From assembly GCA_964498135.1 (NCBI GenBank), contig CAZCGG010000001.1, forward strand, positions 3,371 through 67,370: a DNA stretch of 64,000 nt, given 5' to 3'. Below, piece by piece: positions 618 to 54,688 of this stretch. The notes under the pieces are model-generated. The model was not told the origin of the DNA, searched no databases, and saw nothing but the letters and a program-made list of their open reading frames with translations. The position numbers were made by a program, and so were the translations under genes. How positions within the stretch are numbered: position 1 is the first letter of the stretch; each line of letters begins with the position of its first letter. Source of the stretch: an uncultured Candidatus Moduliflexus sp. (lineage in GTDB: Bacteria > Moduliflexota > Moduliflexia > Moduliflexales > Moduliflexaceae).

Positions 618-646
618 TTGACAAATTCGCAAACGTGATCATAATC
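618..646 (+). promoter_or_regulatory. sigma70-like promoter (TTGACA-N17-ATAATC) upstream of chemosensory operon
   Basis: TTGACA at 618-623, 17 nt spacer, ATAATC/CATAAT at 639-646 in the 344-bp intergenic region. Confidence 0.3.
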
Positions 647-725: not shown

Positions 726-830
726 AGTTTCGCTGAGGGTTCTCAGCGAGAAAATAAACGCCTGAAAAGATCGGCATGTTAGAATAACCGGCATCATTCA
801 ATCGTGTGTAAGGCTGGAGAGGGCGACATC

Positions 831-1925
831 ATGAGCAAGCCGAATGTGTTAGTCATTACCGAACAAACGGACATGCAGGACGAATTACAAACGATTCTCA
901 CGGAACAGTATGAGTATCTTGCGGCGCACACCGGAGTTGACGGCGTGGCAATCTCCCGAATGGCGCGTCCTGCCGCGATTTTCGTGGACATGAACCTCCC
1001 CCGCTTTCAGGCGGTTGGCGTCTGCAAATCGCTCTTAGCCAACGAGCATGCGCGAACGATTCCCGTGTTCGTTGTGGCGGATGAATCGGCGCAGGCGGAT
1101 GGCGATTTAAGCGCGCTTGCCAATTTCAAAGGCATGCTTCCGCGCCCATTCCACGCTGACGACGTGAAATCAAAACTGCAAGCCGCGCTCTCCGGCGCGC
1201 CGGTCTCGGGCGGCAAAGCAGGCGCGCGGGCGGGCGCCAAGCGCGACGAGCCGATTCGAGTCCTTTCAGTAGATGATAGCTCGGTTGTCCGAAAATTGGT
1301 CACGATGATTTTGACGGCGGAAGGCTTTAAAGTCTCCACCGCGTCCGACGGCTTAGAAGGCGTCAACAAAGCCAAAGAAATCAAGCCCGATATTATTCTG
1401 CTCGATTTCGTCATGCCGAAAATGAACGGGTTTCAAGTTTGCCGCATTTTGCAAAAAGATGAAAAATTGCGCCATATTCCGGTCATTCTCGTCACGTCAA
1501 AAGGGGATAAAGTCGGCGACAAGTTCGTGGATCAACTCGGCGTTACGGGCTACATTACCAAGCCGTTTCAGCCCGAAGAATTAGTCAGCAAAATTCATCA
1601 GACCTTAGAAGGCCAGCCGTCCACAGCAGAACCGTCGTCCGCGGCTGGCGAACAGGCCGCCACCCCGACATTTGAAGGAGAAGCGGCCGCTCCGGCAGAG
1701 CATCCCGCGCCCGCCGCGCCGAAAGCCGAGCCTGCCAAACATGCCGCCCCCGCGCATGCCGCGCCAGTCGCCGCAGCCGCGCCACATGACATGGAGCAGC
1801 AGATCAAGCACTTGGTGAAAGCTGAAGTTGAAGCCGCGATGGCGTCTCTGGAAAAACATCTGGAAAAATTGGTCGTTGAAAAACTGAATGAATACATTCG
1901 ACGAGCAAAGAAAAAAGACGCTTAA
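831..1925 (+). CDS. response regulator with degenerate N-terminal receiver plus canonical CheY-like receiver, Pro/Ala-rich linker and C-terminal coiled coil (PilG/FrzZ-like)
   Basis: ATG 831 preceded by GGAGAGGG. Second domain IRVLSVDDS...ILLDFVMPKMNGF...TSK is a canonical REC. First domain is REC-like but lacks the acidic pair. ORF track start 804 is probably too long. Confidence 0.75.
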   Translation: MSKPNVLVITEQTDMQDELQTILTEQYEYLAAHTGVDGVAISRMARPAAIFVDMNLPRFQAVGVCKSLLANEHARTIPVFVVADESAQADGDLSALANFKGMLPRPFHADDVKSKLQAALSGAPVSGGKAGARAGAKRDEPIRVLSVDDSSVVRKLVTMILTAEGFKVSTASDGLEGVNKAKEIKPDIILLDFVMPKMNGFQVCRILQKDEKLRHIPVILVTSKGDKVGDKFVDQLGVTGYITKPFQPEELVSKIHQTLEGQPSTAEPSSAAGEQAATPTFEGEAAAPAEHPAPAAPKAEPAKHAAPAHAAPVAAAAPHDMEQQIKHLVKAEVEAAMASLEKHLEKLVVEKLNEYIRRAKKKDA

Positions 1926-1940
1926 AAAGGACGCGGGGGT

Positions 1941-2321
1941 ATGGGGAAAAAAATATTAATTGTAGATGACAGCCTTGTCGAAATCAAAATTCTTCAAAGC
2001 TTCTTGGCGGAGACGGACTATCTCATCACCGTTGCGCGCAACGGCGAGGAAGGCGAAGCCACCGCCAAGACGGTTGCGCCGGATTTGATTTTTCTGGATG
2101 TCGTCATGCCCAAAAAAAACGGATTCCAAGTTTGTCGAGATTTACGAAAAGAACCGCGATTTCAGCAAACCCCAATCATCATGCTCACGTCAAAATCTCA
2201 AGACACCGATAAATTTTGGGGGATGCAGCAAGGCGCGACCGATTATATTACGAAACCATACGAAAAACAGCAGATTCTCGAAATTTTACGCCAATATTTA
2301 AGCCGCGAGCAGGCGGGATGA
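1941..2321 (+). CDS. cheY: single-domain CheY-like response regulator
   Basis: 126 aa; KILIVDDS...LIFLDVVMPKKNGF...TSK...DYITKP. Confidence 0.85.
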   Translation: MGKKILIVDDSLVEIKILQSFLAETDYLITVARNGEEGEATAKTVAPDLIFLDVVMPKKNGFQVCRDLRKEPRFQQTPIIMLTSKSQDTDKFWGMQQGATDYITKPYEKQQILEILRQYLSREQAG

Positions 2322-2392
2322 GAGGATGTCATTCCGCATGCGCCGCGTGAGCGAGACGCCGGACGCAGCCGTCGGCAGGCGTCCGAAGCCGT

Positions 2393-2890
2393 ATGAAACG
2401 GGTTCATTCCCTTACTGAACATCACCATGCCAAACGAGACGAAGGCAGCCTTGAGCCGCAGGAACGGATTCAAGTCTGCATCTTTGAGCTTGCCGACCGG
2501 CTTTTCGGATTGAGCATTTTCGATGTGCAGGAAATCATGGAAAATTCGCAGATCACGCCTGTGCCGACGACCCCCAATTTTTTATTAGGCGTGATTAACC
2601 TGCGCGGAGACATTGTGCCAATTGCGGATATTCGGGGCATTCTTCATCTTCCGTTTAAAGAGCGCACGCGCGAAAGCCGCATCATGATTCTGAACATTAA
2701 AGATGTGCGGATTGGGATTTTAGTGGATGCGATCAAGGAAGTCTGCCATTTGGATAAGCGCACGTTTCAAGCAGATGCCGCGCAGACCGGCTTGGCGGAC
2801 GGCAAGTTCATCGCCAACATCATTCAATATAAAGACAGTTTGTTAGCGTTGCTCAATTTAGGGCATATTTACAACAGCATCCAATTATAA
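2393..2890 (+). CDS. cheW: CheW coupling protein
   Basis: CheW-like domain (LSIFDVQEI...LGVINLRGDIVPIADIRGIL); start may lie downstream of 2393. Confidence 0.8.
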   Translation: MKRVHSLTEHHHAKRDEGSLEPQERIQVCIFELADRLFGLSIFDVQEIMENSQITPVPTTPNFLLGVINLRGDIVPIADIRGILHLPFKERTRESRIMILNIKDVRIGILVDAIKEVCHLDKRTFQADAAQTGLADGKFIANIIQYKDSLLALLNLGHIYNSIQL

Positions 2891-3024
2891 GCGAGCAGGG
2901 AAAACTGGAACATACACACCGTTACGATGTCTGACAACCCAACAAAGACGAAGACGCCAGAGAAAAGAGGGCATCCCACGAACGGTGCCGTTTTTTCTCC
3001 GAGTTCTTTTCTCTTTCAGCGCGA

Positions 3025-5115
3025 ATGAGTCAGGATCAAGGGCTGCTATCAAAAAAAGGGTTTCATTTTCTGCAAAGTTTCTGGTTTAAATTCTCCGTGC
3101 TGACAGGAAGCCTTGTGCTGATTGCCGTGCTGGTCAACTGGGGACTTGTGCGCTCAGTCTATGAACGGACGCTGGCGTCTGAATTAGAAGAAAAGGGGCA
3201 TATTATCGCCAAATTTGTCCGTTCCTTTAAGATTTCCACGTATTACACGGAAAAAAATTTTGCTCGGATGGAAGAAATGCTCATCGCCGCGCGAAAGCAG
3301 GATCGCGGCATTATTTATGCGTATGTCAAAGACGACGAAGGCAAAATCGTCGCGCAGACGCCGGAAAGCATTACAACCAATTCCACGTCAGAAGGTTTGC
3401 TGGAAGTCATCAATCCGCTTGCCGAAAACACGGCGGTCGCGCATAAGCATCTGACGCTCAAGCTTCCCAACGGCATCCAATATACGATTATTGACACGGC
3501 CATTCAACTGCTGCCCGACCATCAAGCCGAATTGCATGTCGGCTTGCGCACCGGCAGCCGGACGGCATCCTATCTCAGCACCATTCAATTAATTGTCCTC
3601 CTCGCAGTGTTTATCGGCTTAACCGTTCTGATTCTGCGCCGGTTCGTCGTCTCCCAAATTCAAGCGCCGCTCGACCAACTCGTGCATTTCATCAAGCAGA
3701 TCGGTCAGGGCAACATGGAACACTCGCTGACCATGAATGTCAAAAACGAAATGGCGGTTGTCGGCAATAATTTAACCGACATGGCGGAGCAACTCAAAGG
3801 CATGGTGCAGACCGAAGCGGACATCAACCGGATGCAAGGCCAAATCATGAACATGTTAAGCACCGTGAGCGCTGCGGCAGACGGCAATCTCACGGTCGAG
3901 GCTGAAGTCACCGCCGACGCGCTCGGCTCGCTCGCCGACGCTTTTAACATGATGGTGGCGAGTTTGGCGTCATTAGTCCAGCAAGTCCGTAATTCCGCTT
4001 CTGACATGAGCATGGCGACGAACGAAATTCTCGCGTCGTCGGAACAGATGATTAAAGGCGCGGAAGAGCAGCAAAATCACATCAATAACATCACCAGCGC
4101 CGTTGATGAAATCGCCATTTCGATGCAGCAAGTGGCGAATAACGCCGAATCCGCCGCCCGCGCGTCGCAAAAAGCGACGGAAGCCGCGCAGAAAGGCGAA
4201 AAATCGGTGGAAGAAACGATTCGCGGCATGCACCGCATTCGCAATACCGTGCAAGTCACGAGCAAGAAAATCAAAAGCCTTGGGGATCGTTCCATCGAAA
4301 TTAACGAAATTATTACGACGATTGACGACATCGCCCGTCAAACCACGATTCTTGCCTTGAACGCCGCCATCGAAGCCGCCCGCGCCGGAGAACACGGACG
4401 CGGATTCGGCGTCGTCGCTGAAGAAGTGCGGAAATTAGCGGAACGGTCGAGCAAGGCGACGCAGGACATTGCGGATTTGATCAAAGGCATTCAAGCGGAA
4501 ACCAACGAAGCCGTCCGCACGATGGAAGAAGGCACGCGCGAAGTGGAAGAAGGGACGCGGTTGGCCGATATTGCCGGATCGTCGTTGAAAGAGATTGATA
4601 AAAGCGTTGATCAAGTGGCGAGCCTCATTCAAGAAATCTCGCTGGCGGTCAAACAGCAGGCGCGCGGCACGGATGGCGTGGTGCATTCAATGGAGACGAT
4701 TTCGGACATTACGCAACTGCATGGCGACGGCGTGCGCAAGACCACGAAGACGATTCAGCAATTAGCCATGCTGTCAGACCGCTTAGTGGCGGCTATCGGC
4801 AATTTCAAAATCGCGGAATCCGGCGCGCGCGTGGAAATCGCCCGCCCGAAACCGTTAGCATCCGCCCCTGCGCAGCCGCAGCAACACGCGCAGCCACATC
4901 CGCCTCAGCCGCCCCAAGCGCAGCCGCCGCAGCCTCGCCCCAAACCGCAGCCGATTGAGGCGAAAGCGTCGCAGCCGCAGCCACCTCAACCAATGCCGCC
5001 TGCTCAATCGCAAGCCGCGCAAGATTCCGCGCAATTACGAACGTTGTTCGGCAGCCGGGAGGAAGACGAGGATGAAATGATCACGGAAGAAGATTTCGGT
5101 ATCCTCGAAAAATAG
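3025..5115 (+). CDS. methyl-accepting chemotaxis protein with two TM helices, periplasmic sensor domain, HAMP and MCP signalling domain, plus Pro/Gln-rich C-terminal tail
   Basis: 696 aa; hydrophobic segments near residues 20-40 and 190-210; conserved signalling core ...[40 protein letters not shown]... Confidence 0.9.
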
Positions 5116-5121
5116 CCGCCG

Positions 5122-7785
5122 ATGAGTGAAGGATTCAATCGTTCTGACATCGTTGATTTTTTTCTGGTTGAGGCGAGCGAACATCTCCAAACCCTCAATG
5201 ATGGCCTGCTTTCCTTAGAAGAAAACAGCGAAGATTTGAGCATCGTGGATGAAATCTTCCGTTCCGCCCATACGATCAAGGGATCGGCGGCCATGCTCGG
5301 CTTCAATGTTATCAGCAAGCTGGCGCACAAAATGGAGGATTTGCTGGGCAAAATCCGCAGCCGCGAGCTTGAACTGTCTGAGCCGGTGGTTGATCTGCTC
5401 TTGCAGTCGGTAGATTCGCTGACCATGCAGGTCAACGGCATTCCCGGCGGACAGATGGGCGATGAATCCATCCTCCTGATGTTCAATGATCTGTATGCGG
5501 AATATTTAACGGGAGGCGCAGGCAAACCTGCTCCGTCCCAGGCCAAACCCGCCGTAAAAGAGCCGGAGCCGGTCGCCCCGCCCGCAGAAGCGGAAGAGCC
5601 TGAAGAGCCGCTCGAACTGCCGGAAGACCTTGAACTCGACGCCATTCCGCTTGAAGAACTTGCCGAAATTCTGCCTGAAGAAGAGGAAGAAGAATCCGCC
5701 AAGCCCGTTGAAACTGCGCCGGTTGTCGAACCGCCCAAAACGCCGCCAGCCCCTGTCGTTCAGGCCGCGCCGCCGCAAAAAGCGGCTCCAGCAAAACCGT
5801 CAACCATACCCAAAAAAGAGGCGGCGGAGCAATCGCTCGTCTCCGCAAGCGATCAGAAAATCATCAAAGTCGGCGTGGAAGGCTTGAACCTGCTGATGAA
5901 TTTGGTCGGGGAATTGGTGATTAACCGCACCCGCATGGATCAACGGATTCTCTATGTCGGCAAAATCGGCGCGGAACTGAGTTTCAGCCAAGAACGGCTG
6001 CTCAGGGTGATTCGTGATTTCAAGGAAAAATACGAATTCGGCAAGCTCAACGAAACCCCGCCGCCCGCGCCGGAAGCCCGCGTTGAAGAATTCGGCGAGA
6101 CGGAAACGGCCTCGGAATTGTTGGACGGATTTTTCGAATTGGAATTCGATAAATACGACGATTTCAACATCCTCTCGCGCAGCCTTATGGAAATCGGTTC
6201 GGATATTTCGGAAATCATGAGCCAGCTCACCGATTTCTTTGATAAATTCGAAGAGGAATCGTCCCAGATCCGCCGCATTACCAATGAGTTGCAAGAAGAA
6301 ATCACCAATATCCGCATGGTGCCGGTCGGGCAATTGTTCAGCCGATTTCATCGCACGGTGCGCGACTCGGCCAAAGAAGAAGCCAAGCAGGTGACGCTGA
6401 AAATCTCCGGCGAAGACGCCAAACTCGACAAAACCGTCATCAACGAAATCGCCGATCCGCTCATGCACTTGGTGCGCAATTCGGTGTCGCACGGCATCGA
6501 AATCCCGGACGTCCGCAAAGCGCGCGGCAAGTCGGAAGAAGGCACCATCACGCTGAACGCCTACAAAGAAGGGGATAATATCATTATCGAAATCACCGAC
6601 GACGGCAACGGCATAGACGTGCAGCGCGTGCGCGAAACCATCGCGGAAAAAGGGCTGCGTTCGATGGCGGAAGTCGAGCGCATGCCGGATGATGAAGCGA
6701 TCAAATATATTTTCGCGCCCGGCTTTTCGACGAAAAAAGAAGTCAGCGCGATTTCGGGGCGCGGCGTCGGGATGGATGTCGTCAAAACCAATATTTCCAA
6801 GCTTGGCGGCAGCATTGAAATCAAAACCGAACCCGGCAAAGGCAGCAAATTTTCGATTAAACTGCCGTTGACGCTGGTTATTTACGCCGCGTTGTTGGTA
6901 AAATGCAACGAACAGGAATTTGCGATTTCGTTAACGTCCGTTGAGGAAACCGCCCGCATCCCGGTCTATCATATTCACAATATCGGCAAGCAGGAAGTGA
7001 TCAAACTGCGCGACCAAGTGCTGCCGATTCGCAGGCTCAGCCGGATTCTGCGCTATCCGTCCAGCAACGGCTCGCCGTCGAAACAGCAGTACGTTCCGAT
7101 TGTCATTGTCAAATCGGCGGAACATTCCTTAGCCTTAGTCGTGGACGAACTGATCGGGCAGGAAACCATCGTCATCAAGCCGTTGGGCGATTATCTGAAA
7201 AAGGTCAAGCTGTTTTCCGGCGCGACGATTTCAGGGGAAGGCAAAGTCCGGCTGATTCTCGATATTTCCACGATTGTCGAGCGCGAGTTGCTGAGTGAAT
7301 TGGCGAGCGATGTCACGTCCGCGACCATAGATCTGAATGAAGACGTGTTCCAGCCTGTCCCTGCATCGCCCGAACAGGAAGCGGCAAGCACCGAGGCGGC
7401 GGAATTGCTCTTAGTGGATGATTCCATCAGCATTCGCAAAATCATTGCCATGCTGCTGGAAAAGGCCGGATACAAGGTTGACGTGGCCGTAGATGGCGTG
7501 GAAGCCATTGAAAAGCTTGCCAGTAAGTCGTATGCGCTGCTGATTACCGATCTGGAAATGCCGCGCATGCACGGCTATGAACTGATCGCGGAAGTCAGGG
7601 GCAGCAATCAGGCAATCAGTTCGGTTCCGATTATCGTCATGACCTCCCGCGCAGGCGATAAACATCAGGCGAAAGCGATAGAACTCGGCGCAAACGATTA
7701 CATCATCAAGCCGGTTGACGAAGAAACCCTGCTCAAAAGCGTCCGCAGTTTATTGGCGAATCAACGAACGGGGATCGCGCCGTGA
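5122..7785 (+). CDS. cheA: CheA histidine kinase-receiver hybrid (Hpt, dimerisation, HATPase, CheW-like, C-terminal REC)
   Basis: Hpt HTIKGSAAMLGF; HATPase G-boxes (DDGNGID, GRGVGMD); C-terminal LLLVDDSISIRK...LITDLEMPRMHGY receiver; acidic/Pro-rich linker. Confidence 0.9.
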   Translation: MSEGFNRSDIVDFFLVEASEHLQTLNDGLLSLEENSEDLSIVDEIFRSAHTIKGSAAMLGFNVISKLAHKMEDLLGKIRSRELELSEPVVDLLLQSVDSLTMQVNGIPGGQMGDESILLMFNDLYAEYLTGGAGKPAPSQAKPAVKEPEPVAPPAEAEEPEEPLELPEDLELDAIPLEELAEILPEEEEEESAKPVETAPVVEPPKTPPAPVVQAAPPQKAAPAKPSTIPKKEAAEQSLVSASDQKIIKVGVEGLNLLMNLVGELVINRTRMDQRILYVGKIGAELSFSQERLLRVIRDFKEKYEFGKLNETPPPAPEARVEEFGETETASELLDGFFELEFDKYDDFNILSRSLMEIGSDISEIMSQLTDFFDKFEEESSQIRRITNELQEEITNIRMVPVGQLFSRFHRTVRDSAKEEAKQVTLKISGEDAKLDKTVINEIADPLMHLVRNSVSHGIEIPDVRKARGKSEEGTITLNAYKEGDNIIIEITDDGNGIDVQRVRETIAEKGLRSMAEVERMPDDEAIKYIFAPGFSTKKEVSAISGRGVGMDVVKTNISKLGGSIEIKTEPGKGSKFSIKLPLTLVIYAALLVKCNEQEFAISLTSVEETARIPVYHIHNIGKQEVIKLRDQVLPIRRLSRILRYPSSNGSPSKQQYVPIVIVKSAEHSLALVVDELIGQETIVIKPLGDYLKKVKLFSGATISGEGKVRLILDISTIVERELLSELASDVTSATIDLNEDVFQPVPASPEQEAASTEAAELLLVDDSISIRKIIAMLLEKAGYKVDVAVDGVEAIEKLASKSYALLITDLEMPRMHGYELIAEVRGSNQAISSVPIIVMTSRAGDKHQAKAIELGANDYIIKPVDEETLLKSVRSLLANQRTGIAP

Positions 7786-8891
7786 TACGAGTGCTTGTGG
7801 TGGATGATTCCGCGCTCATGGTGCGCATGTTGAGCGACATCATCAACGCTGATGCAGAGTTAGAAGTCATCGGAACGGCGATGCACGGCTATGAGGCGGT
7901 GCGAAAAACCGAGCGGCTGCGGCCGGATGTCATCACAATGGATGTCAACATGCCGCGCATGGACGGCCTGCGCGCCGTCGAGCAAATCATGACCACCATG
8001 CCAACGCCGATTGTGATGATTAGCTCAATGACGCGCGAAGGCGCGACCACTACGCTCAACGCCCTTGAACTGGGCGCGATTGATTTCATCTCCAAACCGT
8101 CCGGCGTCGTCTCTCCCGATATTGGCGAATTAGCCGTCGAAATTGTCGCGAAAATCAAAATCGCCTCGAAAATTCGCGTTGTCCGCACGGTCAAACGGAC
8201 GACGGCCGCCCTGCCGCCAGCGCCTGCGGCGAATGCCGACGCGCCGGATATTGACCGTGCGATTTTCAACTACGTCAAATCCAATCTGCCCGGCAATGTC
8301 TATAAATACGACCGCATCGTGGCGATTGGCTGCTCAACCGGCGGGCCGCAGGCATTAAACGAGATTCTGCCGCGTTTTCCCGTGAATTTTGAAGCGCCGA
8401 TTCTCGTCGTGCAGCACATGCCGAAAAAATTTACCAGCAAGCTCGCGGAATTATTGAACAAACGCCTGAATTTGGGCGTTGTCGAAGCGGCGGCGGGCAT
8501 GAAAATCCGCAAAGGCATGGTGTATATCGCGCCGGGCGGCCATCACCTCAAAATCTTGCCTGATCGCACGCTCGCGCTGTTCGATGGGCCGAAACGCCCC
8601 TCCGAACCCTGCCCGTCCGCCGATATGCTGATGCAATCTGTCGCCGCCGTGTTTGGTAGTCAGGCGATTGGCGTCATTTTAACCGGCATGGGCAATGACG
8701 GCGTTTCCGGCATGATGGCGATTAAAGAGGCTAACGGCGCGACCATCGCGCAGGATGAAGAAACGTCCCTCGTTTTCGGCATGCCCAAAACGGCGATTGA
8801 AGCCGGTTGCGTTGATGCGATTGTCCCGCTGCCCGGCATTGCCAACGAAATTATCGAACGTGTTTTAGGAAAGCGTTACCATCAGGGATAG
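7782..8891 (+). CDS. cheB: CheB methylesterase (REC plus methylesterase domain)
   Basis: IRVLVVDDSALMVR...; catalytic region GCSTGGPQAL...ILVVQHMP; 4-nt overlap with cheA stop. Confidence 0.9.
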   Translation: MIRVLVVDDSALMVRMLSDIINADAELEVIGTAMHGYEAVRKTERLRPDVITMDVNMPRMDGLRAVEQIMTTMPTPIVMISSMTREGATTTLNALELGAIDFISKPSGVVSPDIGELAVEIVAKIKIASKIRVVRTVKRTTAALPPAPAANADAPDIDRAIFNYVKSNLPGNVYKYDRIVAIGCSTGGPQALNEILPRFPVNFEAPILVVQHMPKKFTSKLAELLNKRLNLGVVEAAAGMKIRKGMVYIAPGGHHLKILPDRTLALFDGPKRPSEPCPSADMLMQSVAAVFGSQAIGVILTGMGNDGVSGMMAIKEANGATIAQDEETSLVFGMPKTAIEAGCVDAIVPLPGIANEIIERVLGKRYHQG

Positions 8892-8945
8892 TGCGACTCT
8901 CTCCCCCGCCCGCCGAACTCACATTTTTGTAAAAAATCCTGATTT

Positions 8946-9467
8946 TTGCGACTTTTTGCTTGCTATATGGAAGAGAATGGAGTAAGTTTAGTCTGTTTTG
9001 AAATTTGCGGCGAGAAATTCGCCTTTGATTTGGAATATCTCGTTGAAATTGTTCGCGTTCAGCCGTCAGAAATCACGCCGTGGTATTCGCCTGTGCCGAT
9101 TATTCGGGGAAAATGGGAATATCGCGGGCAAACGGTCTCTATCATAGACCTGCGGGAATTCTTTGGATTACAGCCGACTGCGGAACAATCTCCGCAGAAC
9201 GCGACGCCGGAACAGGGAGCGAAAAATATTCTGGTCATCAGCGTCGAAGACCAGACGTTTGGCTTGCTGACGGATAAAGTCCTGCACATGCAGCCCCTGA
9301 GTTCCTATTACGAATATCCCGCGTTCATTTCACATCTGCCGCGCCGCTATTTCGGAGGCGTAACGATGCGCGAGGCGGAATTAGTGATTCTGTTGGCGGT
9401 TGAAAATTTCGTGAGCGCGTATGAATTGGACATCCTCTCTGGTGACGCGGAGACGGAAGGCGCATGA
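8946..9467 (+). CDS. second CheW-like coupling protein
   Basis: CheW-like fold (VCFEICGEKFAFDLEYLVEIVRV...IIRGKWEYRGQTVSIIDL); start codon uncertain (TTG 8946 or ATG 8967). Confidence 0.65.
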   Translation: MRLFACYMEENGVSLVCFEICGEKFAFDLEYLVEIVRVQPSEITPWYSPVPIIRGKWEYRGQTVSIIDLREFFGLQPTAEQSPQNATPEQGAKNILVISVEDQTFGLLTDKVLHMQPLSSYYEYPAFISHLPRRYFGGVTMREAELVILLAVENFVSAYELDILSGDAETEGA

Positions 9468-9559
9468 ACGCTTGCCGCCGCGACGGGCGCGAGGCGACGC
9501 TGGGAACTCGTCTCGGAACGCCTCATCGAAACGGTTGACGGGCATGGGAGAAAAACGAT

Positions 9560-10762
9560 ATGGCGCAGAAAATACTTATTGCCGATGATCAAATTGCTTC
9601 GCGGCGCATGTTCGAAATGGTGCTTTCCCGCGAAGGGTACGATGTCATTTCTGTCAGTTCCGGCGCGGAGGTCTTGGAAACGGCGACGAAAAAACGCCCG
9701 GATATTGCGCTGATTGACGCGGTTATGCCGGGAGTGGACGGCTATCAGGTCTGCGAATCGCTGAAAAAACATCCGAACTTCAAGACGCTGCCGGTCATTT
9801 TGCTCGCCGGAAAATATGAAGCGTTCGATAAAGAACGCGGGGTGAAAATGGTCGGAGAGCAAGCCATTCTGAGCAAACCGGCGACTTCCGGCGACATTCT
9901 TGCCAAAGTGCAGCAACTGCTCGCCGAGCAATCCAGACAGGCGCAGATAGCGAAAGAGATGCCGGCCGCGCAGGCGAAAGTCGTCGAAGAGCCGCCCGTC
10001 GTGCAGGAAGAATACGAATTTGACGAAGATTCCGAAGAAGCTGATTTAGTCGTGGAAAGCGAAATTCTCGAAGAAGGCGAAATTTTCGATGTTGAAGAAG
10101 CGCCGCAGGATACCGAAGATTTCACGATTTCCGAAAATGCCGCGCAAGCGGAAGAAGACCTTGAAGTAGAGGAAGAAATTCTGGAAGAGGCTGATGAAGG
10201 CGAAGAACCGGCGGTCGCCGAAAAACCAGAGGAAACAGAAGAACCCGAAGAAGAAGCAGATATCGAGGAAACGCCGGAGGCGGAGATCGAGGAAGAAATC
10301 GCCGACATCGAAGAGGAAACGCTCCCCGAAGACGAAATGATTATGGAAGAAGAGCCGGAAGCCGAAGAAGAAATCGAAGAAATTGCGGAACTCGGCGAGA
10401 TGCAGGCGGAAGACATCAAGGAAGAAGTCATCGAAGCAACGCCGGCCCCGCAGCCGTTCGTCGCGCCGACAGTGACGATGCAGACCGTCGTGACGCCGCC
10501 CGCCGCGCCAAAAGTTGCGCCGCAGATCGCGCCAAAACCGGCCAAAGTCGAGGCGATGCCAGAAATTTCCGACGAAACACTTGACATGCTGACCGAGCAA
10601 ATCGCACAACGGTTAGCCGGAAAACTTGTCCCGGCGTTAATGCAGGAAATCTCCGCCTATTTACTGCAATTCCCGGCGGTCACTGCCATCGTCGAGCAGA
10701 CCAGCAAACGCTTGGTGAAAGACCTGTTGCCGGAAATTCAACACTCACGAACGAACGCCTGA
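9560..10762 (+). CDS. response regulator: REC domain, ~150-aa polyglutamate/acidic linker, C-terminal domain of unknown function
   Basis: KILIADDQIASRRMFE...ALIDAVMPGVDGY...LSKP canonical REC; residues ~140-300 almost entirely E/D/A/I; last ~100 aa non-acidic, helical, unrecognised. Confidence 0.8.
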   Translation: MAQKILIADDQIASRRMFEMVLSREGYDVISVSSGAEVLETATKKRPDIALIDAVMPGVDGYQVCESLKKHPNFKTLPVILLAGKYEAFDKERGVKMVGEQAILSKPATSGDILAKVQQLLAEQSRQAQIAKEMPAAQAKVVEEPPVVQEEYEFDEDSEEADLVVESEILEEGEIFDVEEAPQDTEDFTISENAAQAEEDLEVEEEILEEADEGEEPAVAEKPEETEEPEEEADIEETPEAEIEEEIADIEEETLPEDEMIMEEEPEAEEEIEEIAELGEMQAEDIKEEVIEATPAPQPFVAPTVTMQTVVTPPAAPKVAPQIAPKPAKVEAMPEISDETLDMLTEQIAQRLAGKLVPALMQEISAYLLQFPAVTAIVEQTSKRLVKDLLPEIQHSRTNA

Positions 10763-10800: not shown

Positions 10801-13467
10801 ATGAATGACACACGCAGACGATTTATCAGTATTGATCCGCAAACCCTTGCCAAACATTTTGACGCAAAGGAGGCCGAAGAGCGTTGGGATCGCGCATGGC
10901 AGGAGCAGGGCATTTACCGCTACGACCCGACCGCGCCGCGCGAACAAACGTTTGTGGTTGACACGCCGCCGCCGACCGTGTCCGGCTCGCTCCACATGGG
11001 GCATATTTTCAGCTATACGCACACGGATGTCATCGTGCGCTACAAACGCATGCAAGGGCTGAACATTTTCTATCCGATGGGATGGGATGACAACGGGTTG
11101 CCGACGGAACGGCGGGTACAAAATTATTTTCACGTGACCTGCAACCCGAAACTTCCCTATCAGCCCGATTTCCAGAGGGAACATGCTGGCGCGAAATCGC
11201 GCGAACATCACCCGTTAGAACTCTCGCGGAAAAATTTCATCGAACTCTGCCAGCAGTTGACGAAAGAAGATGAAAAGGCGTTCATGGAATTGTGGCGGCG
11301 GGTCGGCTTGTCCGTAGATTGGAGCGAGGAATACGCCACGATTGGCGATCACGCCCGACATATCGCGCAACTCAGCTTTTTGGATTTGTACGAAAAAGGA
11401 CATATTTATCATCACGAAGCGCCGACGATGTGGGATATTCATTTCCAAACGGCGGTCGCGCAGGCCGAACTTGAGGATCGCCCGGTCAACGGGGCGTTTT
11501 ACCGGGTCGCGTTCGGCGTCGAAGGACAAGACCGGTCATTCGTGATTGCGACGACGCGCCCGGAATTATTAGCGGCCTGCGTCGGCGTGACCGCGCATCC
11601 TGATGACAGCCGCTACAAAGATTTATTCGGCAAACGCGCCGTCACGCCGTTGTTCCGCGTGCCTGTGCCGATTTTCCCCAGCGAACTCGCTGACCCGGAA
11701 AAAGGCACCGGCATTCTGATGGTCTGCACGTTCGGCGATCAAACTGACGTGCGCTGGTGGAAAGAGCAAAAGCTGCAACTCCGGCAAGTTCTCGGCATGG
11801 ACGGGCATTTTCTGCCGATCACCTATGGCGCGGCAGGCTGGGAAAGCCTGAATCCCGAAGCTGCGAATGTGTACTATGCCCAATTAGTCGGCAAAAATGT
11901 CAAGGCCGCGCATAAAATCATGGACGAGATGCTGCGCGATCCGAATGGCGCGGCGACGAACGCGACGCAGGGCGCGCCGCTGCAAGGCGAACCGCAGCCG
12001 TTGACACATGATGTCAAATTTTACGAAAAAGGCGAGACGCCGCTCGAATTCATCACAACGCGCCAATGGTTCGTCCGCCTGCTCGATAAAAAAGACATGT
12101 TGCTGGAGAAGGGCAACCGCATCCAATGGCATCCCGATTACATGCGGCTGCGCTACGCGAACTGGACGGAAAACCTGCAATTCGATTGGTGCATCAGCCG
12201 CCAGCGTTATTTTGGCATTTCGTTTCCGGTCTGGTATCCGGTCAACGCCGACGGGCAGGCCGATTACGCGCATCCGATTTTGGCCGACCGCTCGCAGCTG
12301 CCGGTTGATCCAATGGTGGACGTTCCGCCGTCTTATGCGCCGGAACAGCGCGACATGCAGGGCGGATTCACCGGCGAAGCGGATGTATTCGACACCTGGT
12401 TTACCAGCTCGATGTCGCCGCAAATCGGCTCGCATTGGGAAAAAAATCTGGCGCGCCACAAAGCATTATTTCCGATGGATATTCGCCCGCAGGCGCATGA
12501 CATTATCCGTACGTGGGCGTTTTACACGATTGCGAAAGCGGCGCTACACGAAGACGTGATTCCGTGGAAGCACGTCCTGCTGTCCGGCTGGATTCTCGAT
12601 CCGGATCGCAAAAAAATGTCGAAAAGCAAGGGAAACGTCGTCACGCCGATGCAATTCGTCGAAGATTTTTCGGCGGACAGCGTGCGCTATTGGGCATCCA
12701 ATGCGCGGCTCGGCACGGATACCGCGTTTGATCAAGGCATGTTCAAAATCGGCAAGCGCCTTGTGACAAAATTATTTAACGCGGGCAAATTCGTCTTGAT
12801 GAACGAAGCGGAAGTTATGCCGATAACCGAAGAGCTTGACCGTGCCTTCGCGCAGAAACTCGCGCAGCTTGTCCAAAAAGCGACCACCGCGCTTGAGGAA
12901 TTTGATTTTGCGACCGCGCTTTCGGAAACGGAAAAATTCTTCTGGCAGCATTTTACCGATAATTATCTTGAGCTTGCCAAAAACCGCGCAAAGGGGGCAG
13001 ACGGCATCAGCGAAGCGGCGCAAAGCTCGGCGGTGGCGGGGCTGCGGTTAGGGTTGAGTGTGTTGCTGCGCCTGTTTGCGCCGATGCTGCCGTACATTAC
13101 GGAAGAAATCTGGTCATGGGCGTTTGCGGCGGAAACCGGCTGCCCATCCATTCATAAAGCCGCATGGCCGGGCGCGGCTGATTTTCAGGGCATTGACGCG
13201 CCGCAAGCCGCCGATAGTTTCGATGTCGCCGTCGCTTGCATCACGGAGTTGCGCAAATATAAAACCGAGCATGGGCTTTCGATGGTGCGGGAGTTGGAGC
13301 ATGTCACGCTAGCCGGGCATCCGAATACGCTGGCAATCAGCCAGCGCGTTCTCGGCGACGTGCTGGCCGCGATTCATGTCAACGCTTACGCGCTTGAACC
13401 GGATCCGGCGATGTCAGAAAATACGTTTGTCGTGCGAGACGCGGCAATCGCGCCACAGCCAGAATAA
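10801..13467 (+). CDS. valS: valyl-tRNA synthetase (class I aaRS, short type)
   Basis: 888 aa; PPPTVSGSLHMGH (HIGH motif region) and KMSKSKGNVV (KMSKS); ValRS-like N-terminus. Confidence 0.75.
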   Translation: MNDTRRRFISIDPQTLAKHFDAKEAEERWDRAWQEQGIYRYDPTAPREQTFVVDTPPPTVSGSLHMGHIFSYTHTDVIVRYKRMQGLNIFYPMGWDDNGLPTERRVQNYFHVTCNPKLPYQPDFQREHAGAKSREHHPLELSRKNFIELCQQLTKEDEKAFMELWRRVGLSVDWSEEYATIGDHARHIAQLSFLDLYEKGHIYHHEAPTMWDIHFQTAVAQAELEDRPVNGAFYRVAFGVEGQDRSFVIATTRPELLAACVGVTAHPDDSRYKDLFGKRAVTPLFRVPVPIFPSELADPEKGTGILMVCTFGDQTDVRWWKEQKLQLRQVLGMDGHFLPITYGAAGWESLNPEAANVYYAQLVGKNVKAAHKIMDEMLRDPNGAATNATQGAPLQGEPQPLTHDVKFYEKGETPLEFITTRQWFVRLLDKKDMLLEKGNRIQWHPDYMRLRYANWTENLQFDWCISRQRYFGISFPVWYPVNADGQADYAHPILADRSQLPVDPMVDVPPSYAPEQRDMQGGFTGEADVFDTWFTSSMSPQIGSHWEKNLARHKALFPMDIRPQAHDIIRTWAFYTIAKAALHEDVIPWKHVLLSGWILDPDRKKMSKSKGNVVTPMQFVEDFSADSVRYWASNARLGTDTAFDQGMFKIGKRLVTKLFNAGKFVLMNEAEVMPITEELDRAFAQKLAQLVQKATTALEEFDFATALSETEKFFWQHFTDNYLELAKNRAKGADGISEAAQSSAVAGLRLGLSVLLRLFAPMLPYITEEIWSWAFAAETGCPSIHKAAWPGAADFQGIDAPQAADSFDVAVACITELRKYKTEHGLSMVRELEHVTLAGHPNTLAISQRVLGDVLAAIHVNAYALEPDPAMSENTFVVRDAAIAPQPE

Positions 13468-13779: not shown

Positions 13780-14808
13780 ATGTCCGCGAAAGCTTCGGGA
13801 AAAAAATTTATGCTGTCGAATGCCAATTTAAGTATCAACGCCAAAATTCTTGATGTGCTACGCTCAAAATCGCACAATTATATTTCGGGCGAGCAACTCA
13901 GCCGTGAATTGAACATGTCGCGCACAGCGATTTGGAAGCACGTCAACGCGCTGCGAGATTTGGGGTATCGCGTTGAAGCGATTACGTCGGTTGGATATAA
14001 ACTCCTCTCCTCGCCGTCCCTGCTACTGCCGTTGGAAATCAAGAACGGCCTGCGCACCAAGTTCATCGGTCAAGAAGTGCACTGGGAATACGAAGTCGGC
14101 TCAACGAATACCGTCGCGTTGCAATTAGCGGAGCAAGGCGAGCCGGAAGGCACGGTCGTTGTCAGCGAATCTCAGCGTCAGGGGCGCGGGCGCATGGGGC
14201 GCACGTGGATTTCTCAGCCCGAAAGCGGCATTTACCTTTCCATAATTCTCCGCCCCCATTTCGTGCCAATGAAAGCCGTCTGCGTCACGTTTATCGCCGC
14301 GATTGCCGTTGTAGAAGCGATTGAGCGGCTATTCGGCCTGCGCGCGCAAATTAAATGGCCGAACGACGTGATGATTCACGGAAAAAAGATGGCCGGGATT
14401 TTGACGGAACTGCGCGCCGAAATGGAAGGGATTCATTACATGATTGTCGGCATGGGCGTGAACGTCAATACCACGCGCTTTCCCAAAGAACTTCAGTCAA
14501 AAGTGACCTCGTTGAACGTGGAATTGAAAGAAAAAATTTCGCGCGTGAAGCTTGCGCAAGCGATTTTGGAAAGCTTGGAACAGTGGTATCTCATCACGCA
14601 GAGCGAGGGTGGCGTGGAACGGGCGTTTGACCAGTGGCGCGAACTTTCCTGCACGTTAGGCCATCGCGTCGAAATCAATTTAGGCACAGAAATCGTGCAT
14701 GGCCTTGCCACGCATCTCGGCCAGATGGGGTCGCTGTTTGTCACGCTTGATTCCGGCGAAGAACGCGAAATTCTTGCCGGAGATGTCACGATGGTTGAAC
14801 GGGTGTAA
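13780..14808 (+). CDS. birA: bifunctional biotin-[acetyl-CoA-carboxylase] ligase / biotin operon repressor BirA
   Basis: N-terminal wHTH (LSRELNMSRTAIWKHVNALRDLGY); biotin ligase motif GRGRMGRTWISQPESGIYLSIIL and KWPNDV. Confidence 0.85.
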   Translation: MSAKASGKKFMLSNANLSINAKILDVLRSKSHNYISGEQLSRELNMSRTAIWKHVNALRDLGYRVEAITSVGYKLLSSPSLLLPLEIKNGLRTKFIGQEVHWEYEVGSTNTVALQLAEQGEPEGTVVVSESQRQGRGRMGRTWISQPESGIYLSIILRPHFVPMKAVCVTFIAAIAVVEAIERLFGLRAQIKWPNDVMIHGKKMAGILTELRAEMEGIHYMIVGMGVNVNTTRFPKELQSKVTSLNVELKEKISRVKLAQAILESLEQWYLITQSEGGVERAFDQWRELSCTLGHRVEINLGTEIVHGLATHLGQMGSLFVTLDSGEEREILAGDVTMVERV

Positions 14809-14824
14809 TTTTCGGGTTGGCAAT

Positions 14825-54613: not shown

Positions 54614-54688
54614 CGTACCGCATGCGCCCGGCTCGCGGAGAATCGTTCTCCTCCAAACGGGACATGTGCGGGACGATCCGGGCAGTCG

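What the first reader, a model, noticed from the sequence alone, without database searches (positions are those of the whole stretch)
804..10762. Pil-Chp/Frz-like chemosensory operon lacking CheR, ending in a non-canonical output regulator
The gene order is dual-receiver regulator, CheY, CheW, transmembrane MCP, CheA-REC hybrid, CheB, CheW, then a REC-acidic regulator. This mirrors Pseudomonas pilG-pilH-pilI-pilJ-(pilK)-chpA-chpB-chpC and the Myxococcus Frz system (FrzZ dual CheY, FrzE CheA-CheY), which govern surface motility and other non-flagellar outputs rather than flagellar chemotaxis. There is a methylesterase but no methyltransferase in the cluster. The terminal gene is neither a DNA-binding nor a diguanylate-cyclase regulator. 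This suggests a chemosensory pathway with an alternative cellular function and an undefined output.
Basis: partly seen in the sequence, partly recalled or inferred. Interest (0 to 1): 0.6.

Follow-up and report, generated by a model that had tools for sequence, protein, structure and literature searches.

The report
Chemosensory operon ending in RomR
This is a chemotaxis-like gene cluster from a non-flagellated, gliding, filamentous bacterium (candidate phylum KSB3), and its puzzling last gene is a divergent copy of RomR, the cell-polarity regulator of Myxococcus, which suggests which kind of kinase originally controlled RomR.

Summary
The eight genes are present as described: RR1, CheY, CheW, a transmembrane MCP, CheA-REC, CheB, a second CheW and a REC-acidic protein. 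There is no CheR in the window, in 4.3 kb upstream of it, or in any orthologous locus. The organism belongs to KSB3/Moduliflexota, which are gliding filaments without flagella. The receptor resembles PilJ (40H length, with an extra HAMP-like segment). CheY is closest to PilH. The true receiver of RR1 is about 60% identical to receivers of PatA-type (PATAN) regulators. The CheA core, however, did not cluster with ChpA.

The main new result is that the terminal regulator is a RomR ortholog. Its receiver falls in the RomR clade (bootstrap 178/200). Its layout is REC, disordered linker, then a helical C-terminus. That C-terminus links to RomR-C through acidobacterial intermediates. The neighbourhood CheW-romR-valS matches Myxococcus.

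A Nitrospirota locus carries PatA-CheY-CheW-MCP-CheA-REC-CheW-CheW-RomR (canonical)-ValRS, so che-romR-valS is conserved across phyla. Acidobacterial copies have no che genes upstream and have lost the phospho-acceptor Asp; KSB3 copies keep it. This is a new variant of known systems. It is a lead on the unidentified RomR kinase.

The parts
618..645 (+). Promoter-like site (TTGACA-16-CATAAT) upstream of the first gene
   Evidence: Consensus scan, 11 of 12 matches. This is a consensus match only, not shown to function.
831..1925 (+). RR1: degenerate pseudo-receiver (aa 10-130), true receiver (aa 150-268), Pro/Ala-rich linker, then a conserved basic C-terminal helix (...EKxNEYIRRAKKK). It sits in the PilG/PixG position.
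   Evidence: Pfam REC x2. Ortholog alignment. The gene is called as 364 aa from ATG 831 in L052. REC2 is 58-63% identical to receivers of PATAN/PatA_N regulators of Nitrospirota. Orthologs are named in Ca. Moduliflexus flocculans and Ca. Vecturithrix granuli.
1941..2321 (+). Single-domain CheY, PilH-like
   Evidence: Pfam. BLASTP gives 106 bits to A. baumannii PilH, 100 to the CheY of the D. radiodurans cluster and 47 to E. coli CheY. It is 50% identical to the CheY of the Nitrospirota cluster. In the REC tree it groups with PilH.
2393..2890 (+). CheW1, primary coupling protein (PilI position)
   Evidence: Pfam CheW E=2.7e-31.
2970..2989 (+). Terminator-like hairpin followed by a T-run, between CheW1 and the MCP; possible attenuator
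   Evidence: Consensus scan. The number of such sites in the region does not exceed the shuffles, so this is weak evidence.
3025..5115 (+). Transmembrane MCP with a periplasmic domain of unknown family, HAMP, a second HAMP-like PilJ-type segment, a 40H-length signalling domain and a P/Q-rich tail
   Evidence: Pfam. 38.7% identity to A. baumannii PilJ over 344 aa with almost no gaps. Two 14-residue insertions relative to E. coli Tar, one on each arm. Best hits among plasmid and chromid records are Deinococcus MCPs and Acinetobacter PilJ. E/Q pairs (EEQQ 348-351, QQ 544-545) align with Tar methylation sites 1 and 4.
5077..5097 (+). Conserved acidic-aromatic motif M/L-I-T-E-E-D-F at the end of the MCP tail; candidate tether for CheB, analogous to NWETF
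   Evidence: Conserved in KSB3, L005 and L055 orthologs, while the linker before it varies. Its function is inferred.
5122..7785 (+). Hybrid CheA: P1(Hpt), acidic/Pro-rich linker with no P2, then P3, P4, P5 and REC
   Evidence: Pfam. His in AHTIKG and Asp in ITDLEMP are present. 39% identity over the full length to the Nitrospirota cluster CheA, 619 bits. Collinear with the ChpA core plus REC and with the Deinococcus CheA. The core did not cluster with ChpA.
7782..8891 (+). CheB methylesterase/deamidase with receiver; overlaps cheA by 4 nt
   Evidence: NCBIfam CheB 402.8 bits, above the cut-off. Catalytic Ser (STGG), His (QHMP) and Asp (GMGNDG) and the receiver Asp align with E. coli CheB.
8967..9467 (+). 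CheW2, divergent second coupling protein (ChpC position). Its ortholog in L005 is an Hpt-CheW fusion.
   Evidence: Pfam CheW E=3.2e-19. 38% identity to the CheW part of the L005 Hpt-CheW protein.
9560..10762 (+). RomR ortholog (the 'terminal regulator'): REC with D9, D10, D53 and K106, and Ala at the Thr position; disordered acidic linker; helical C-terminal domain
   Evidence: REC clade with Myxococcus RomR, bootstrap 178/200. Shared signature PV(V/I)LLAGx(F/Y)EAFD. AF2: REC pLDDT above 90, aa 174-330 below 50, helices 338-368 and 372-398. Synteny CheW-romR-valS matches Myxococcus.
9980..10075 (+). Near-invariant acidic-aromatic linear motif (VVEEPxxVQEEYEFDEDSEEADLVVESEILEE, aa 141-172) inside the disordered linker
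   Evidence: Invariant columns across 43 homologs. Predicted unstructured, pLDDT 54-66. Similar F/Y-E-F/V-D/E motifs occur in Nitrospirota, acidobacterial and L055 RomR linkers. The binding partner is unknown.
10571..10753 (+). C-terminal two-helix hairpin, a divergent RomR-C
   Evidence: AF2 pLDDT 91. No Pfam hit. Only 15 hits among 1.84 billion representatives. hhalign to the acidobacterial C-terminus: E=4.4e-11, probability 97%. The acidobacterial profile matches Nitrospirota RomR-C at E=6.4e-9 and Myxococcus RomR-C at about 1e-4. The direct comparison is not significant.
10801..13467 (+). Class I aminoacyl-tRNA synthetase in the valS slot, 38 nt after romR
   Evidence: Pfam. 50% identity to the acidobacterial gene in the same position. 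A ValRS follows romR in Myxococcus, Nitrospirota and L005/L055.
13780..15517 (+). BirA and a conserved protein of about 230 aa with unknown function, which complete the old romR-valS-birA synteny block
   Evidence: NCBIfam and Pfam BirA. The 230-aa protein is homologous in KSB3, L005 and Acidobacteria, E=1e-12.

Best explanation
The region is a chemosensory operon of a KSB3 (Moduliflexota) filamentous glider. It is built like the pilus-controlling Pil-Chp/Pix systems, and its last gene is a divergent ortholog of RomR, the Myxococcus polarity regulator.

Shown:
- the identity of all parts;
- the PilJ-like receptor, the PilH-like CheY and the PatA-like receiver of RR1;
- an intact CheB and the absence of CheR from the cluster;
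- RomR orthology of the last gene;
- conservation of the che-romR-valS arrangement in KSB3, an unnamed sister lineage (L005/L055) and Nitrospirota, with a CheW-CheW-romR-valS remnant in Myxococcus.

Inferred mechanism:
1. The transmembrane 40H receptor, coupled by CheW1 and CheW2, controls the hybrid kinase CheA.
2. The P1 domain of CheA passes phosphate to RR1 and CheY (an antagonistic PilG/PilH-like or PixG/PixH-like pair), to its own receiver (a sink), to CheB and to RomR at Asp53.
3. RomR acts through its disordered acidic linker and its oligomerising helical C-terminus as a polar scaffold. Its phosphorylation state would set or switch the direction of surface motility of the filament.
4. 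CheB, possibly docked on the MCP tail motif ITEEDF, deamidates or demethylates the receptor. Methylation, if any, would need one of the CheR genes encoded elsewhere in the genome.
For: - Parts.
- Taxon and lifestyle: homologs are named KSB3, Ca. Moduliflexus and Ca. Vecturithrix. These organisms have no flagellar genes, glide in sugar gradients and have a partial type IV pilus gene set (PMC4312070).
- The operon is conserved gene for gene in L001, L002, L003, L005, L052 and L055.
- Receptor: best matches are Deinococcus MCPs and A. baumannii PilJ, inside clusters that read RR-RR-MCP-ChpA and CheY-CheW-MCPx3-CheA-PATAN protein-RR. The length class is 40H like PilJ (PMC13599512).
- CheY is closest to PilH. 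RR1 REC2 is about 60% identical to PATAN-regulator receivers.
- RomR orthology rests on the REC clade at 178/200, the LLAGx(F/Y)EAFD signature, the REC-disordered-helical layout (compared with PMC3441718 and PMC12719032), the transitive C-terminal profile links and the synteny with valS and a CheW gene (PMC2034494).
- The Nitrospirota locus has a canonical RomR-C (56% identity to Myxococcus, with the Trp and Pro) at the end of an orthologous che operon. There the MCP is 46%, CheA 39% and CheY 50% identical to the window proteins.
- Coupling to phosphorylation: all 46 KSB3 copies keep the acceptor Asp. In acidobacterial copies, which have no che genes upstream, 122 of 123 have lost it.
- No terminator-like site lies between CheW2, romR and valS.
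- In L003, where valS is missing, romR stays with the che genes.
Against: - No experiment exists for any KSB3 protein.
- The CheA P3-P5 core formed its own clade with the Nitrospirota and L055 orthologs. It did not join ChpA or the Deinococcus CheA (2/200), and it was no closer to them than to E. coli, Rhizobium or Deferribacter CheA.
- CheA has one Hpt domain, not several.
- The direct profile comparison of the KSB3 C-terminus with Myxococcus RomR-C is not significant (E=0.07).
- The Trp that binds MglC (W394, PMC12719032) and the Glu that contacts RomX (E108, bioRxiv 10.1101/2024.02.20.581209) are not conserved in KSB3.
- The presence of MglA, MglB, RomX or MglC in KSB3 was not tested.
- In Myxococcus, FrzE did not phosphorylate RomR in vitro (an unpublished remark in PMC3441718), and the role of D53 phosphorylation is disputed (PMC6428892).
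- romR-valS is also conserved without che genes, so the adjacency could be inherited rather than functional.
Confidence: 0.68

Rival explanations
1. The che genes and the terminal gene are neighbours by descent only. romR belongs to an old romR-valS-birA block, and the seven-gene che operon merely abuts it. On this view RomR is not an output of this CheA. The true outputs are RR1 and CheY.
For: - In Vicinamibacterales the block RR-valS-nadC-birA-coaX-230 aa protein follows methylmalonyl-CoA mutase genes, with no che genes.
- The 230-aa protein and the aaRS are orthologous to those of the window.
- There is a 92-nt gap before romR.
- The RomR kinase is unknown in Myxococcus, and FrzE failed to phosphorylate it in vitro (PMC3441718).
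Against: - The che-romR junction is kept in at least three deep lineages, namely KSB3, L005/L055 and Nitrospirota. Myxococcus keeps a CheW-CheW gene there.
- Loss of the che genes coincides with loss of the acceptor Asp.
- romR stays with the che genes where valS has left the position (L003).
- No terminator-like site precedes romR.
Confidence: 0.22
2. The system is an 'alternative cellular function' pathway that controls something other than motility, such as exopolysaccharide production, filament development or bulking. The terminal protein would then serve as a scaffold or a phosphate sink.
For: - The CheA core did not join the Tfp reference kinases.
- CheA-REC hybrids are also typical of the ACF class (PMC10782961).
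- An exosortase gene lies 5 kb downstream.
- No pilus genes lie within 64 kb.
- The conserved Thr of the terminal receiver is Ala.
Against: - The receptor, CheY and RR1 receiver are most similar to components of pilus-controlling systems.
- The Thr-to-Ala change is shared with Myxococcus RomR, so it is a family trait and not a sign of a sink.
- RomR is known only as a motility polarity factor (PMC3441718, PMC4546325).
- The exosortase is not kept next to the block in L002 or L003.
Confidence: 0.1
3. It is a flagellar chemotaxis operon of an F class.
For: - NCBIfam CheA models for Halobacterium and E. coli match the kinase well, although below their cut-offs.
- The CheA core is as close to E. 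coli, Rhizobium and Deferribacter CheA as to ChpA.
- CheW1 is closest to the Ralstonia and E. coli CheW among the few references available.
Against: - No flagellar genes are in the window or the flanks.
- No flagellar genes are in the published KSB3 genomes (PMC4312070).
- CheY gives only 47 bits to E. coli CheY against 106 to PilH.
- The cluster has no CheZ, CheC or CheX, and it ends in RomR.
Confidence: 0.02

Closest known systems
RomR of Myxococcus xanthus (MXAN_4461), polarity regulator working with RomX, MglA, MglB and MglC downstream of Frz
   Same: - N-terminal receiver with acceptor Asp53 and the LLAGx(F/Y)EAFD signature.
- Long disordered linker and helical C-terminal region.
- The gene lies between a CheW-domain gene and valS.
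   Different: - The linker is acidic, not Pro-rich, and carries a near-invariant EEYEFDEDSEE motif.
- The C-terminal domain is a longer two-helix hairpin that lacks the invariant Trp (W394).
- The Glu that contacts RomX is absent.
- Here the gene closes a complete che operon instead of standing next to a lone CheW-CheW gene.
Pil-Chp system of Pseudomonas and Acinetobacter (pilG-pilH-pilI-pilJ-pilK-chpA-chpB-chpC), Tfp class
   Same: - Same gene order: two response regulators, CheW, MCP, CheA-REC, CheB, second CheW.
- 40H PilJ-like receptor with an extra HAMP-like segment.
- PilH-like CheY.
- No P2 domain in CheA (PMC13599512).
   Different: - No PilK (CheR).
- One Hpt domain instead of many.
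- The first regulator has an added pseudo-receiver and a basic C-terminal helix.
- The kinase core does not cluster with ChpA.
- A RomR gene is appended.
Cyanobacterial Tax/Pix systems (pixG-pixH-pixI-pixJ-pixL) and other PatA-type (PATAN) regulator clusters
   Same: - The order is regulator with an accessory domain, CheY, CheW, MCP, CheA-REC.
- The RR1 receiver is about 60% identical to receivers of PATAN regulators.
- The orthologous Nitrospirota operon starts with a REC-PATAN protein (PMC11181946).
   Different: - RR1 has no PATAN domain. A degenerate receiver takes the accessory position.
- CheB is present.
- The receptor has no photosensory domain.
Frz system of Myxococcus xanthus (ACF class)
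   Same: - Hybrid CheA-CheY, CheB, two CheW-like proteins and a two-receiver regulator.
- RomR acts downstream of Frz (PMC4546325).
- Controls non-flagellar surface motility.
   Different: - The receptor is transmembrane, not cytoplasmic.
- There is no CheR-TPR (FrzF).
- The first receiver of RR1 is degenerate, whereas both FrzZ receivers are phosphorylated.
- The gene order differs.
- No Frz protein sequences could be fetched for a direct comparison.

Membership tests
Tfp-class chemosensory system (Wuichet and Zhulin classification, MiST) | CheA P3-P5 core assigned to the Tfp class by class-specific HMMs or phylogeny | tested here: inconclusive
   The MiST HMMs are not available here. In a nine-sequence NJ tree the window CheA clustered with its Nitrospirota and L055 orthologs (171/200) and not with A. 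baumannii ChpA or the D. radiodurans CheA (2/200).
Tfp-class chemosensory system (Wuichet and Zhulin classification, MiST) | Gene order: two CheY-like regulators, CheW, MCP, then a CheA with C-terminal receiver and no P2; a second CheW in proteobacterial members | tested here: met
   Compared with the A. baumannii pilG-pilH-(pilI)-pilJ-chpA locus and PMC13599512.
Tfp-class chemosensory system (Wuichet and Zhulin classification, MiST) | PilJ-type receptor of heptad class 40H | tested here: met
   The alignment to PilJ runs 344 aa with almost no gaps at 38.7% identity. There are two 14-residue insertions relative to the 36H receptor Tar, and the HAMP-like linker segment is shared with PilJ and Deinococcus MCPs. 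The PilJ_N sensor domain was not detected.
Tfp-class chemosensory system (Wuichet and Zhulin classification, MiST) | Multiple Hpt domains in CheA (typical, not universal) | tested here: not met
   A single Hpt domain at aa 10-100; aa 100-245 are low-complexity.
Tfp-class chemosensory system (Wuichet and Zhulin classification, MiST) | Genome encodes type IV pili that the system controls | not testable with these tools
   Only 64 kb plus flanks are visible. The literature reports pilB, pilC, pilG, pilT and pilV but an incomplete set in KSB3 (PMC4312070).
RomR family | N-terminal receiver belonging to the RomR clade | tested here: met
   NJ tree of 27 receivers: KSB3, L005, Myxococcus RomR and acidobacterial proteins form one clade, 178/200. 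36% identity to M. xanthus RomR REC. Shared beta4-alpha4 signature.
RomR family | Unstructured linker of lineage-specific composition | tested here: met
   AF2 pLDDT is below 50 for aa 174-330. The linker varies in length and is acidic among 43 homologs.
RomR family | Conserved alpha-helical RomR-C with invariant Trp and Pro and many Glu (PMC3441718) | tested here: inconclusive
   The region is helical and conserved. Homology is supported only transitively: KSB3 to Acidobacteria E=4.4e-11; Acidobacteria to Nitrospirota RomR-C 6.4e-9; Acidobacteria to Myxococcus 1e-4 to 2e-6. The direct comparison is not significant (E=0.07). Pro is present; the Trp is absent.
RomR family | Conserved neighbourhood with valS (and a CheW-domain gene) | tested here: met
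   PMC2034494 Fig. 1 legend. Verified in Myxococcus loci L017 and L045, Acidobacteria, Nitrospirota and the window.
RomR family | Co-occurrence with MglA/MglB (and RomX) | not tested
   No whole KSB3 genome could be scanned. None of these genes lies in the window.
Frz system (ACF class) | Cytoplasmic receptor FrzCD, CheR-TPR FrzF, and FrzZ with two phosphorylatable receivers | tested here: not met
   The receptor has two hydrophobic segments and a HAMP domain. No CheR is present. REC1 of RR1 lacks the acidic pair, the Thr and the Lys.
Flagellar F-class chemotaxis | Flagellar genes in the neighbourhood or genome; CheY that targets FliM; a dedicated phosphatase | tested here: not met
   No flagellar genes in the window or flanks. 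The phylum is reported to lack flagellar genes. No CheZ, CheC or CheX is present.

The most novel reading that the evidence does not exclude
The arrangement PatA/PilG-like regulator, CheY, CheW, MCP, CheA-REC, (CheB), CheW, RomR, valS is the ancestral RomR signalling module, and RomR began as the dedicated output regulator of this CheA.

On this reading:
- Myxococcus kept only the CheW-CheW gene (MXAN_4462) and rewired RomR to Frz.
- Vicinamibacterales lost the che genes and, with them, the phospho-acceptor Asp.

This would name the class of kinase that phosphorylates RomR, which has been unknown since 2007. It would also extend the RomR polarity module to filamentous gliders of candidate phylum KSB3 and to Nitrospirota.
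Probability: 0.4. Interest if true: 0.72.

Novelty: new variant of a known kind. Interest (0 to 1): 0.58.

Why it matters
RomR is a central polarity factor for Myxococcus motility, but the kinase that phosphorylates it has never been identified. FrzE reportedly failed to do so in vitro, and even the need for phosphorylation is debated.

This work finds romR as the last gene of a complete, conserved chemosensory operon in three deep lineages. It also finds that the acceptor Asp is lost exactly where the che genes are missing. Together these give a concrete, testable candidate: a hybrid CheA of this operon type.

The finding also explains the odd CheW-CheW gene next to romR in Myxococcus.

Finally, it gives a first mechanistic handle on directional control of gliding in KSB3 filaments. 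These filaments cause bulking in anaerobic wastewater reactors, and their motility mechanism is unknown.

Tried and rejected
- PopZ/DUF2497-like C-terminal domain. This was recalled from memory as a lead. Pfam at E<=10 gave no such hit, so it was dropped.
- Foldseek of the C-terminal hairpin against the PDB gave no match. A two-helix hairpin is not informative for fold search.
- A PDB sequence search with the terminal protein returned only generic receivers and no RomR entry.
- The direct hhalign of the KSB3 C-terminus against Myxococcus RomR-C was not significant. Homology rests on intermediates and on synteny.
- CheW2 against the Myxococcus CheW-CheW protein MXAN_4462 showed no detectable similarity. 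Their correspondence is positional only.
- The CheA core tree with the references I could fetch did not place the kinase with ChpA, so I do not file it as a Tfp-class member.
- A search for Moduliflexota in the supplement of the CheA architecture survey found nothing. The Wuichet and Zhulin 2010 paper is not held.
- RomR sequences are not printed in the papers or their supplements. They were obtained by scanning genomes with a published romR primer.
- MglA/MglB presence in KSB3 could not be tested, because the tools list only the best 120 hits and cannot scan a chosen genome.

Full report
OBSERVATION

All eight genes are real and sit at the stated coordinates on the + strand.
- RR1 (804/831-1925) has two Response_reg stretches.
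- CheY is at 1941-2321 and CheW1 at 2393-2890.
- The MCP (3025-5115) has HAMP and MCPsignal domains.
- CheA (5122-7785) has Hpt, dimerisation, HATPase, CheW and REC domains.
- CheB (7782-8891) has a receiver and a methylesterase domain.
- CheW2 is a weak CheW at 8946/8967-9467.
- The last gene (9560-10762) encodes a 400-aa protein in which only the N-terminal receiver is recognised.

Intergenic gaps run from -4 to 134 nt. A strong promoter-like site lies at 618-645. No terminator-like site separates CheW2, the last gene and the aminoacyl-tRNA synthetase that follows (consensus scans only).

The phospho-acceptor and catalytic residues of CheA, CheY, CheB and the second receiver of RR1 are intact. 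The first receiver of RR1 is degenerate (DD->TE, Thr->Ala, Lys->Arg; 33 bits).

CheR is absent. tblastn with E. coli CheR found nothing below E=0.1 in the window or in the related loci. The contig copy L052 shows that the 4.3 kb upstream of window position 1 encode an aminotransferase, an ABC-2 permease and Uma2. The rest of the window holds housekeeping genes and has no flagellar or pilus genes.

ORGANISM

Homologs of the first and last genes carry the names candidate division KSB3, Candidatus Moduliflexus flocculans and Candidatus Vecturithrix granuli.

These filaments have no flagellar genes and glide at 20-30 um/min in glucose or maltose gradients. Each genome encodes more than 60 MCPs, 17-19 CheA-COG proteins, 8-16 CheB and 7-8 CheR, and the type IV pilus gene set is incomplete (PMC4312070 text and Table S8).

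A flagellar output is therefore excluded in practice. A CheR acting from elsewhere in the genome remains possible.

THE CHE PART

The operon is conserved gene for gene, always without CheR, in four KSB3 contigs and in a more distant unnamed lineage (L005, L055).

Receptor:
- Among 72,556 plasmid and chromid records, its best matches are Deinococcus MCPs and Acinetobacter baumannii PilJ.
- Those matches lie inside the clusters pilG-pilH-(pilI)-pilJ-chpA and CheY-CheW-MCPx3-CheA-PATAN protein-RR.
- It aligns to PilJ over 344 residues almost without gaps.
- It has two 14-residue insertions relative to the 36H receptor Tar.
- It shares with PilJ and the Deinococcus MCPs a second HAMP-like segment.
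- PilJ is a 40H receptor (PMC13599512).

Regulators:
- CheY scores 106 bits against PilH and 47 against E. coli CheY.
- The true receiver of RR1 is 58-63% identical to receivers of PATAN (PatA_N) regulators. PATAN regulators open cyanobacterial pilus-controlling operons and bind the pilus motor (bioRxiv 10.1101/2021.06.11.447907; PMC11181946).

Kinase:
- CheA lacks P2 and carries a C-terminal receiver. That architecture is concentrated in the F3, F5, ACF and Tfp classes (PMC10782961).
- Its P3-P5 core did not cluster with ChpA or the Deinococcus kinase in a small tree. The window, L055 and Nitrospirota kinases formed their own clade (171/200), while a union with ChpA appeared in only 2 of 200 replicates.

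I therefore describe the system as Pil-Chp/Pix-like in layout, receptor and regulators. I do not file it as a Tfp-class member.

THE TERMINAL GENE

Its family has about 50 clusters, all KSB3-like. The layout is as follows:
- a receiver with D9, D10, D53 and K106, and Ala in place of the conserved Thr;
- a disordered linker;
- a near-invariant acidic-aromatic motif (aa 141-172);
- a variable acidic stretch;
- a 60-residue two-helix hairpin (AF2 pLDDT 91).

The hairpin has no Pfam match. A profile of it found only 15 proteins among 1.84 billion representatives. Some of these are long acidobacterial response regulators with repeated copies of its two helices.

Those acidobacterial genes number more than 600 and come from Vicinamibacterales. 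They sit in the block response regulator-valS-nadC-birA-coaX-230 aa protein, with no che genes. The aaRS and the 230-aa protein are orthologous to those downstream of the window gene.

That pattern recalled RomR. The first RomR paper states that romR (MXAN4461) lies between a Val-tRNA synthetase gene and a gene with two CheW domains (PMC2034494). I fetched 36 myxobacterial romR loci with a published primer and confirmed the order CheW-CheW, romR, valS, nadC.

M. xanthus RomR shares the signature PVVLLAGTFEAFDE with the window protein (PVILLAGKYEAFDKE), the acceptor at position 53 and the Thr-to-Ala change. In a tree of 27 receivers, the KSB3, L005, acidobacterial and myxobacterial proteins form one clade (178/200).

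The C-terminal comparisons gave these results:

| Comparison | Result |
|---|---|
| Acidobacterial profile vs KSB3 hairpin | E=4.4e-11, probability 97% |
| Acidobacterial profile vs Nitrospirota RomR-C | E=6.4e-9, probability 96% |
| Acidobacterial profile vs Myxococcus RomR-C | E about 1e-4 to 2e-6 |
| KSB3 hairpin vs Myxococcus RomR-C, direct | not significant, E=0.07 |

The architecture of receiver, disordered linker and oligomerising C-terminal helix is that described for RomR (PMC3441718; PMC12719032). I conclude that the terminal gene is a divergent RomR ortholog.

It differs from Myxococcus RomR in several ways:
- It lacks the Trp that binds MglC.
- It lacks the Glu that contacts RomX.
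- It has an acidic rather than a Pro-rich linker.
- It has a longer C-terminal domain.

THE LINK BETWEEN THE TWO PARTS

A Nitrospirota contig (L054) reads CheD, REC-PATAN regulator, CheY, CheW, MCP, CheA-REC, CheW, CheW, a 452-aa protein, ValRS.

The 452-aa protein is a canonical RomR. Its receiver is 39-40% identical to M. xanthus RomR, and its last 41 residues are 56% identical, including the Trp and the Pro. The che proteins of that locus are orthologs of the window proteins: MCP 46%, CheA 39% over the full length, CheY 50%.

So che-romR-valS is conserved in Nitrospirota, in KSB3 and in the L005/L055 lineage. Myxococcus keeps only a CheW-CheW gene at the junction. Vicinamibacterales keep none.

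The phospho-acceptor Asp tracks this pattern. It is present in all 46 KSB3 copies, in L005/L055, in Nitrospirota and in Myxococcus. It is replaced by Gly, Ala or Ser in 122 of 123 acidobacterial copies. In L003, where valS is absent from the position, romR stays with the che genes.

This argues that RomR is a phosphorylation target of the operon's CheA. The argument is an inference from comparative data and has not been shown directly.

ADAPTATION

- CheR is missing from every version of the cluster.
- CheB is present in KSB3 and L005/L055. The Nitrospirota version has CheD instead. Both enzymes deamidate receptor glutamines.
- The receptor keeps E/Q pairs at positions that align with Tar sites 1 and 4 (EEQQ 348-351, QQ 544-545).
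- The receptor ends in a flexible tail with a conserved ITEEDF motif in the lineages that have CheB.
- I infer that CheB docks on the tail, as it does on NWETF in E. coli. I also infer that regulated deamidation or demethylation is the conserved function. Any methylation would depend on a CheR encoded elsewhere.

VERDICT

The 'undefined output' is resolved as RomR.

I found no report of a che-romR operon in the papers searched. Guzzo et al. proposed a primary circuit in which a CheA phosphorylates RomR directly (PMC4546325). Keilberg et al. noted that the RomR kinase is unknown (PMC3441718).

This locus is a new variant of known systems, with moderate to good interest for the motility-polarity field. 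The main uncertainties are:
- the formal class of the kinase;
- whether KSB3 has MglA/MglB and a complete pilus;
- whether CheA really phosphorylates RomR.

Noticed in passing
window 49606-51483 (-), with 51491-52810 (-) and 52862-57121 (-): One protein fuses an ABC-transporter ATPase domain to a PAS-HisKA-HATPase histidine kinase. It lies next to a sigma-54 response regulator and a HydABC-type [FeFe] hydrogenase (large subunit, NuoF-like, NuoE-like). Sekiguchi et al. 2015 already remarked that hydrogenase genes sit next to signalling genes in KSB3.
   Followed up: no
window 5077-5097 (MCP aa 685-691); L001, L002, L003, L005 and L055 orthologs: The MCP ends in a variable P/Q-rich linker followed by a conserved (D/E)(L/F)I(T/S)(E/D)(E/K)DF motif. 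This resembles the tethered NWETF pentapeptide of E. coli receptors. The Nitrospirota ortholog, whose cluster has CheD instead of CheB, has a different tail.
   Followed up: partly
P0126, P0128, P0134-P0252; loci L004, L014, L015: Vicinamibacterales RomR-like proteins have lost the phospho-acceptor Asp in 122 of 123 cases but keep the Glu that contacts RomX in Myxococcus. They carry up to seven tandem copies of the 'ITDEKLDQIAxRVAxRL' unit, or many copies of the 'ETSERLVR' unit.
   Followed up: partly
L005 8128-9189: In the unnamed sister lineage the second CheW is an Hpt-CheW fusion. Its Hpt domain is 63% identical to the P1 domain of the window CheA, so it looks like a partial duplicate of CheA.
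   Followed up: no
window 9980-10075; L054 17826-19184; L055 18514-19641: Acidic-aromatic short motifs (F/Y-E-F/V-D/E, for example EEYEFDED, TFEVEPEFEVEPE, FEVDDxWF) recur in the disordered linkers of RomR proteins from KSB3, Nitrospirota, Acidobacteria and L055, but not in the Pro-rich Myxococcus linker. The partner is unknown.
   Followed up: partly
window 14825-15517; L001 14799-15491; L005 14971-15660; L014 16726-17445: A protein of about 230 aa with no Pfam match follows birA (or coaX) in KSB3, in L005 and in Acidobacteria. The copies are homologous (E=1e-12), so it belongs to the old romR-valS-birA block.
   Followed up: partly
window 10801-13467 compared with L017 3203-7027 and L005 10508-13165: The aaRS after romR is 50% identical to the acidobacterial one but only 27-29% identical to the ValRS of Myxococcus and L005, which carry the Val_tRNA-synt_C arm. 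Two different ValRS types therefore occupy the same slot.
   Followed up: no
window 16000-50000: The ribosomal-protein, rpoBC and EF-Tu superoperon on the minus strand has 43-47% GC and a strongly negative GC skew. The flanks have 51-57% GC.
   Followed up: no
L009 15571-17211 (D. radiodurans plasmid 3): The Deinococcus pilus-type che cluster also ends with extra regulators: a PATAN (DUF4388) protein and a 253-aa response regulator. The receiver of the latter has an LPVILMSG segment where RomR has LLAG, and in the receiver tree it branches next to the RomR clade.
   Followed up: no
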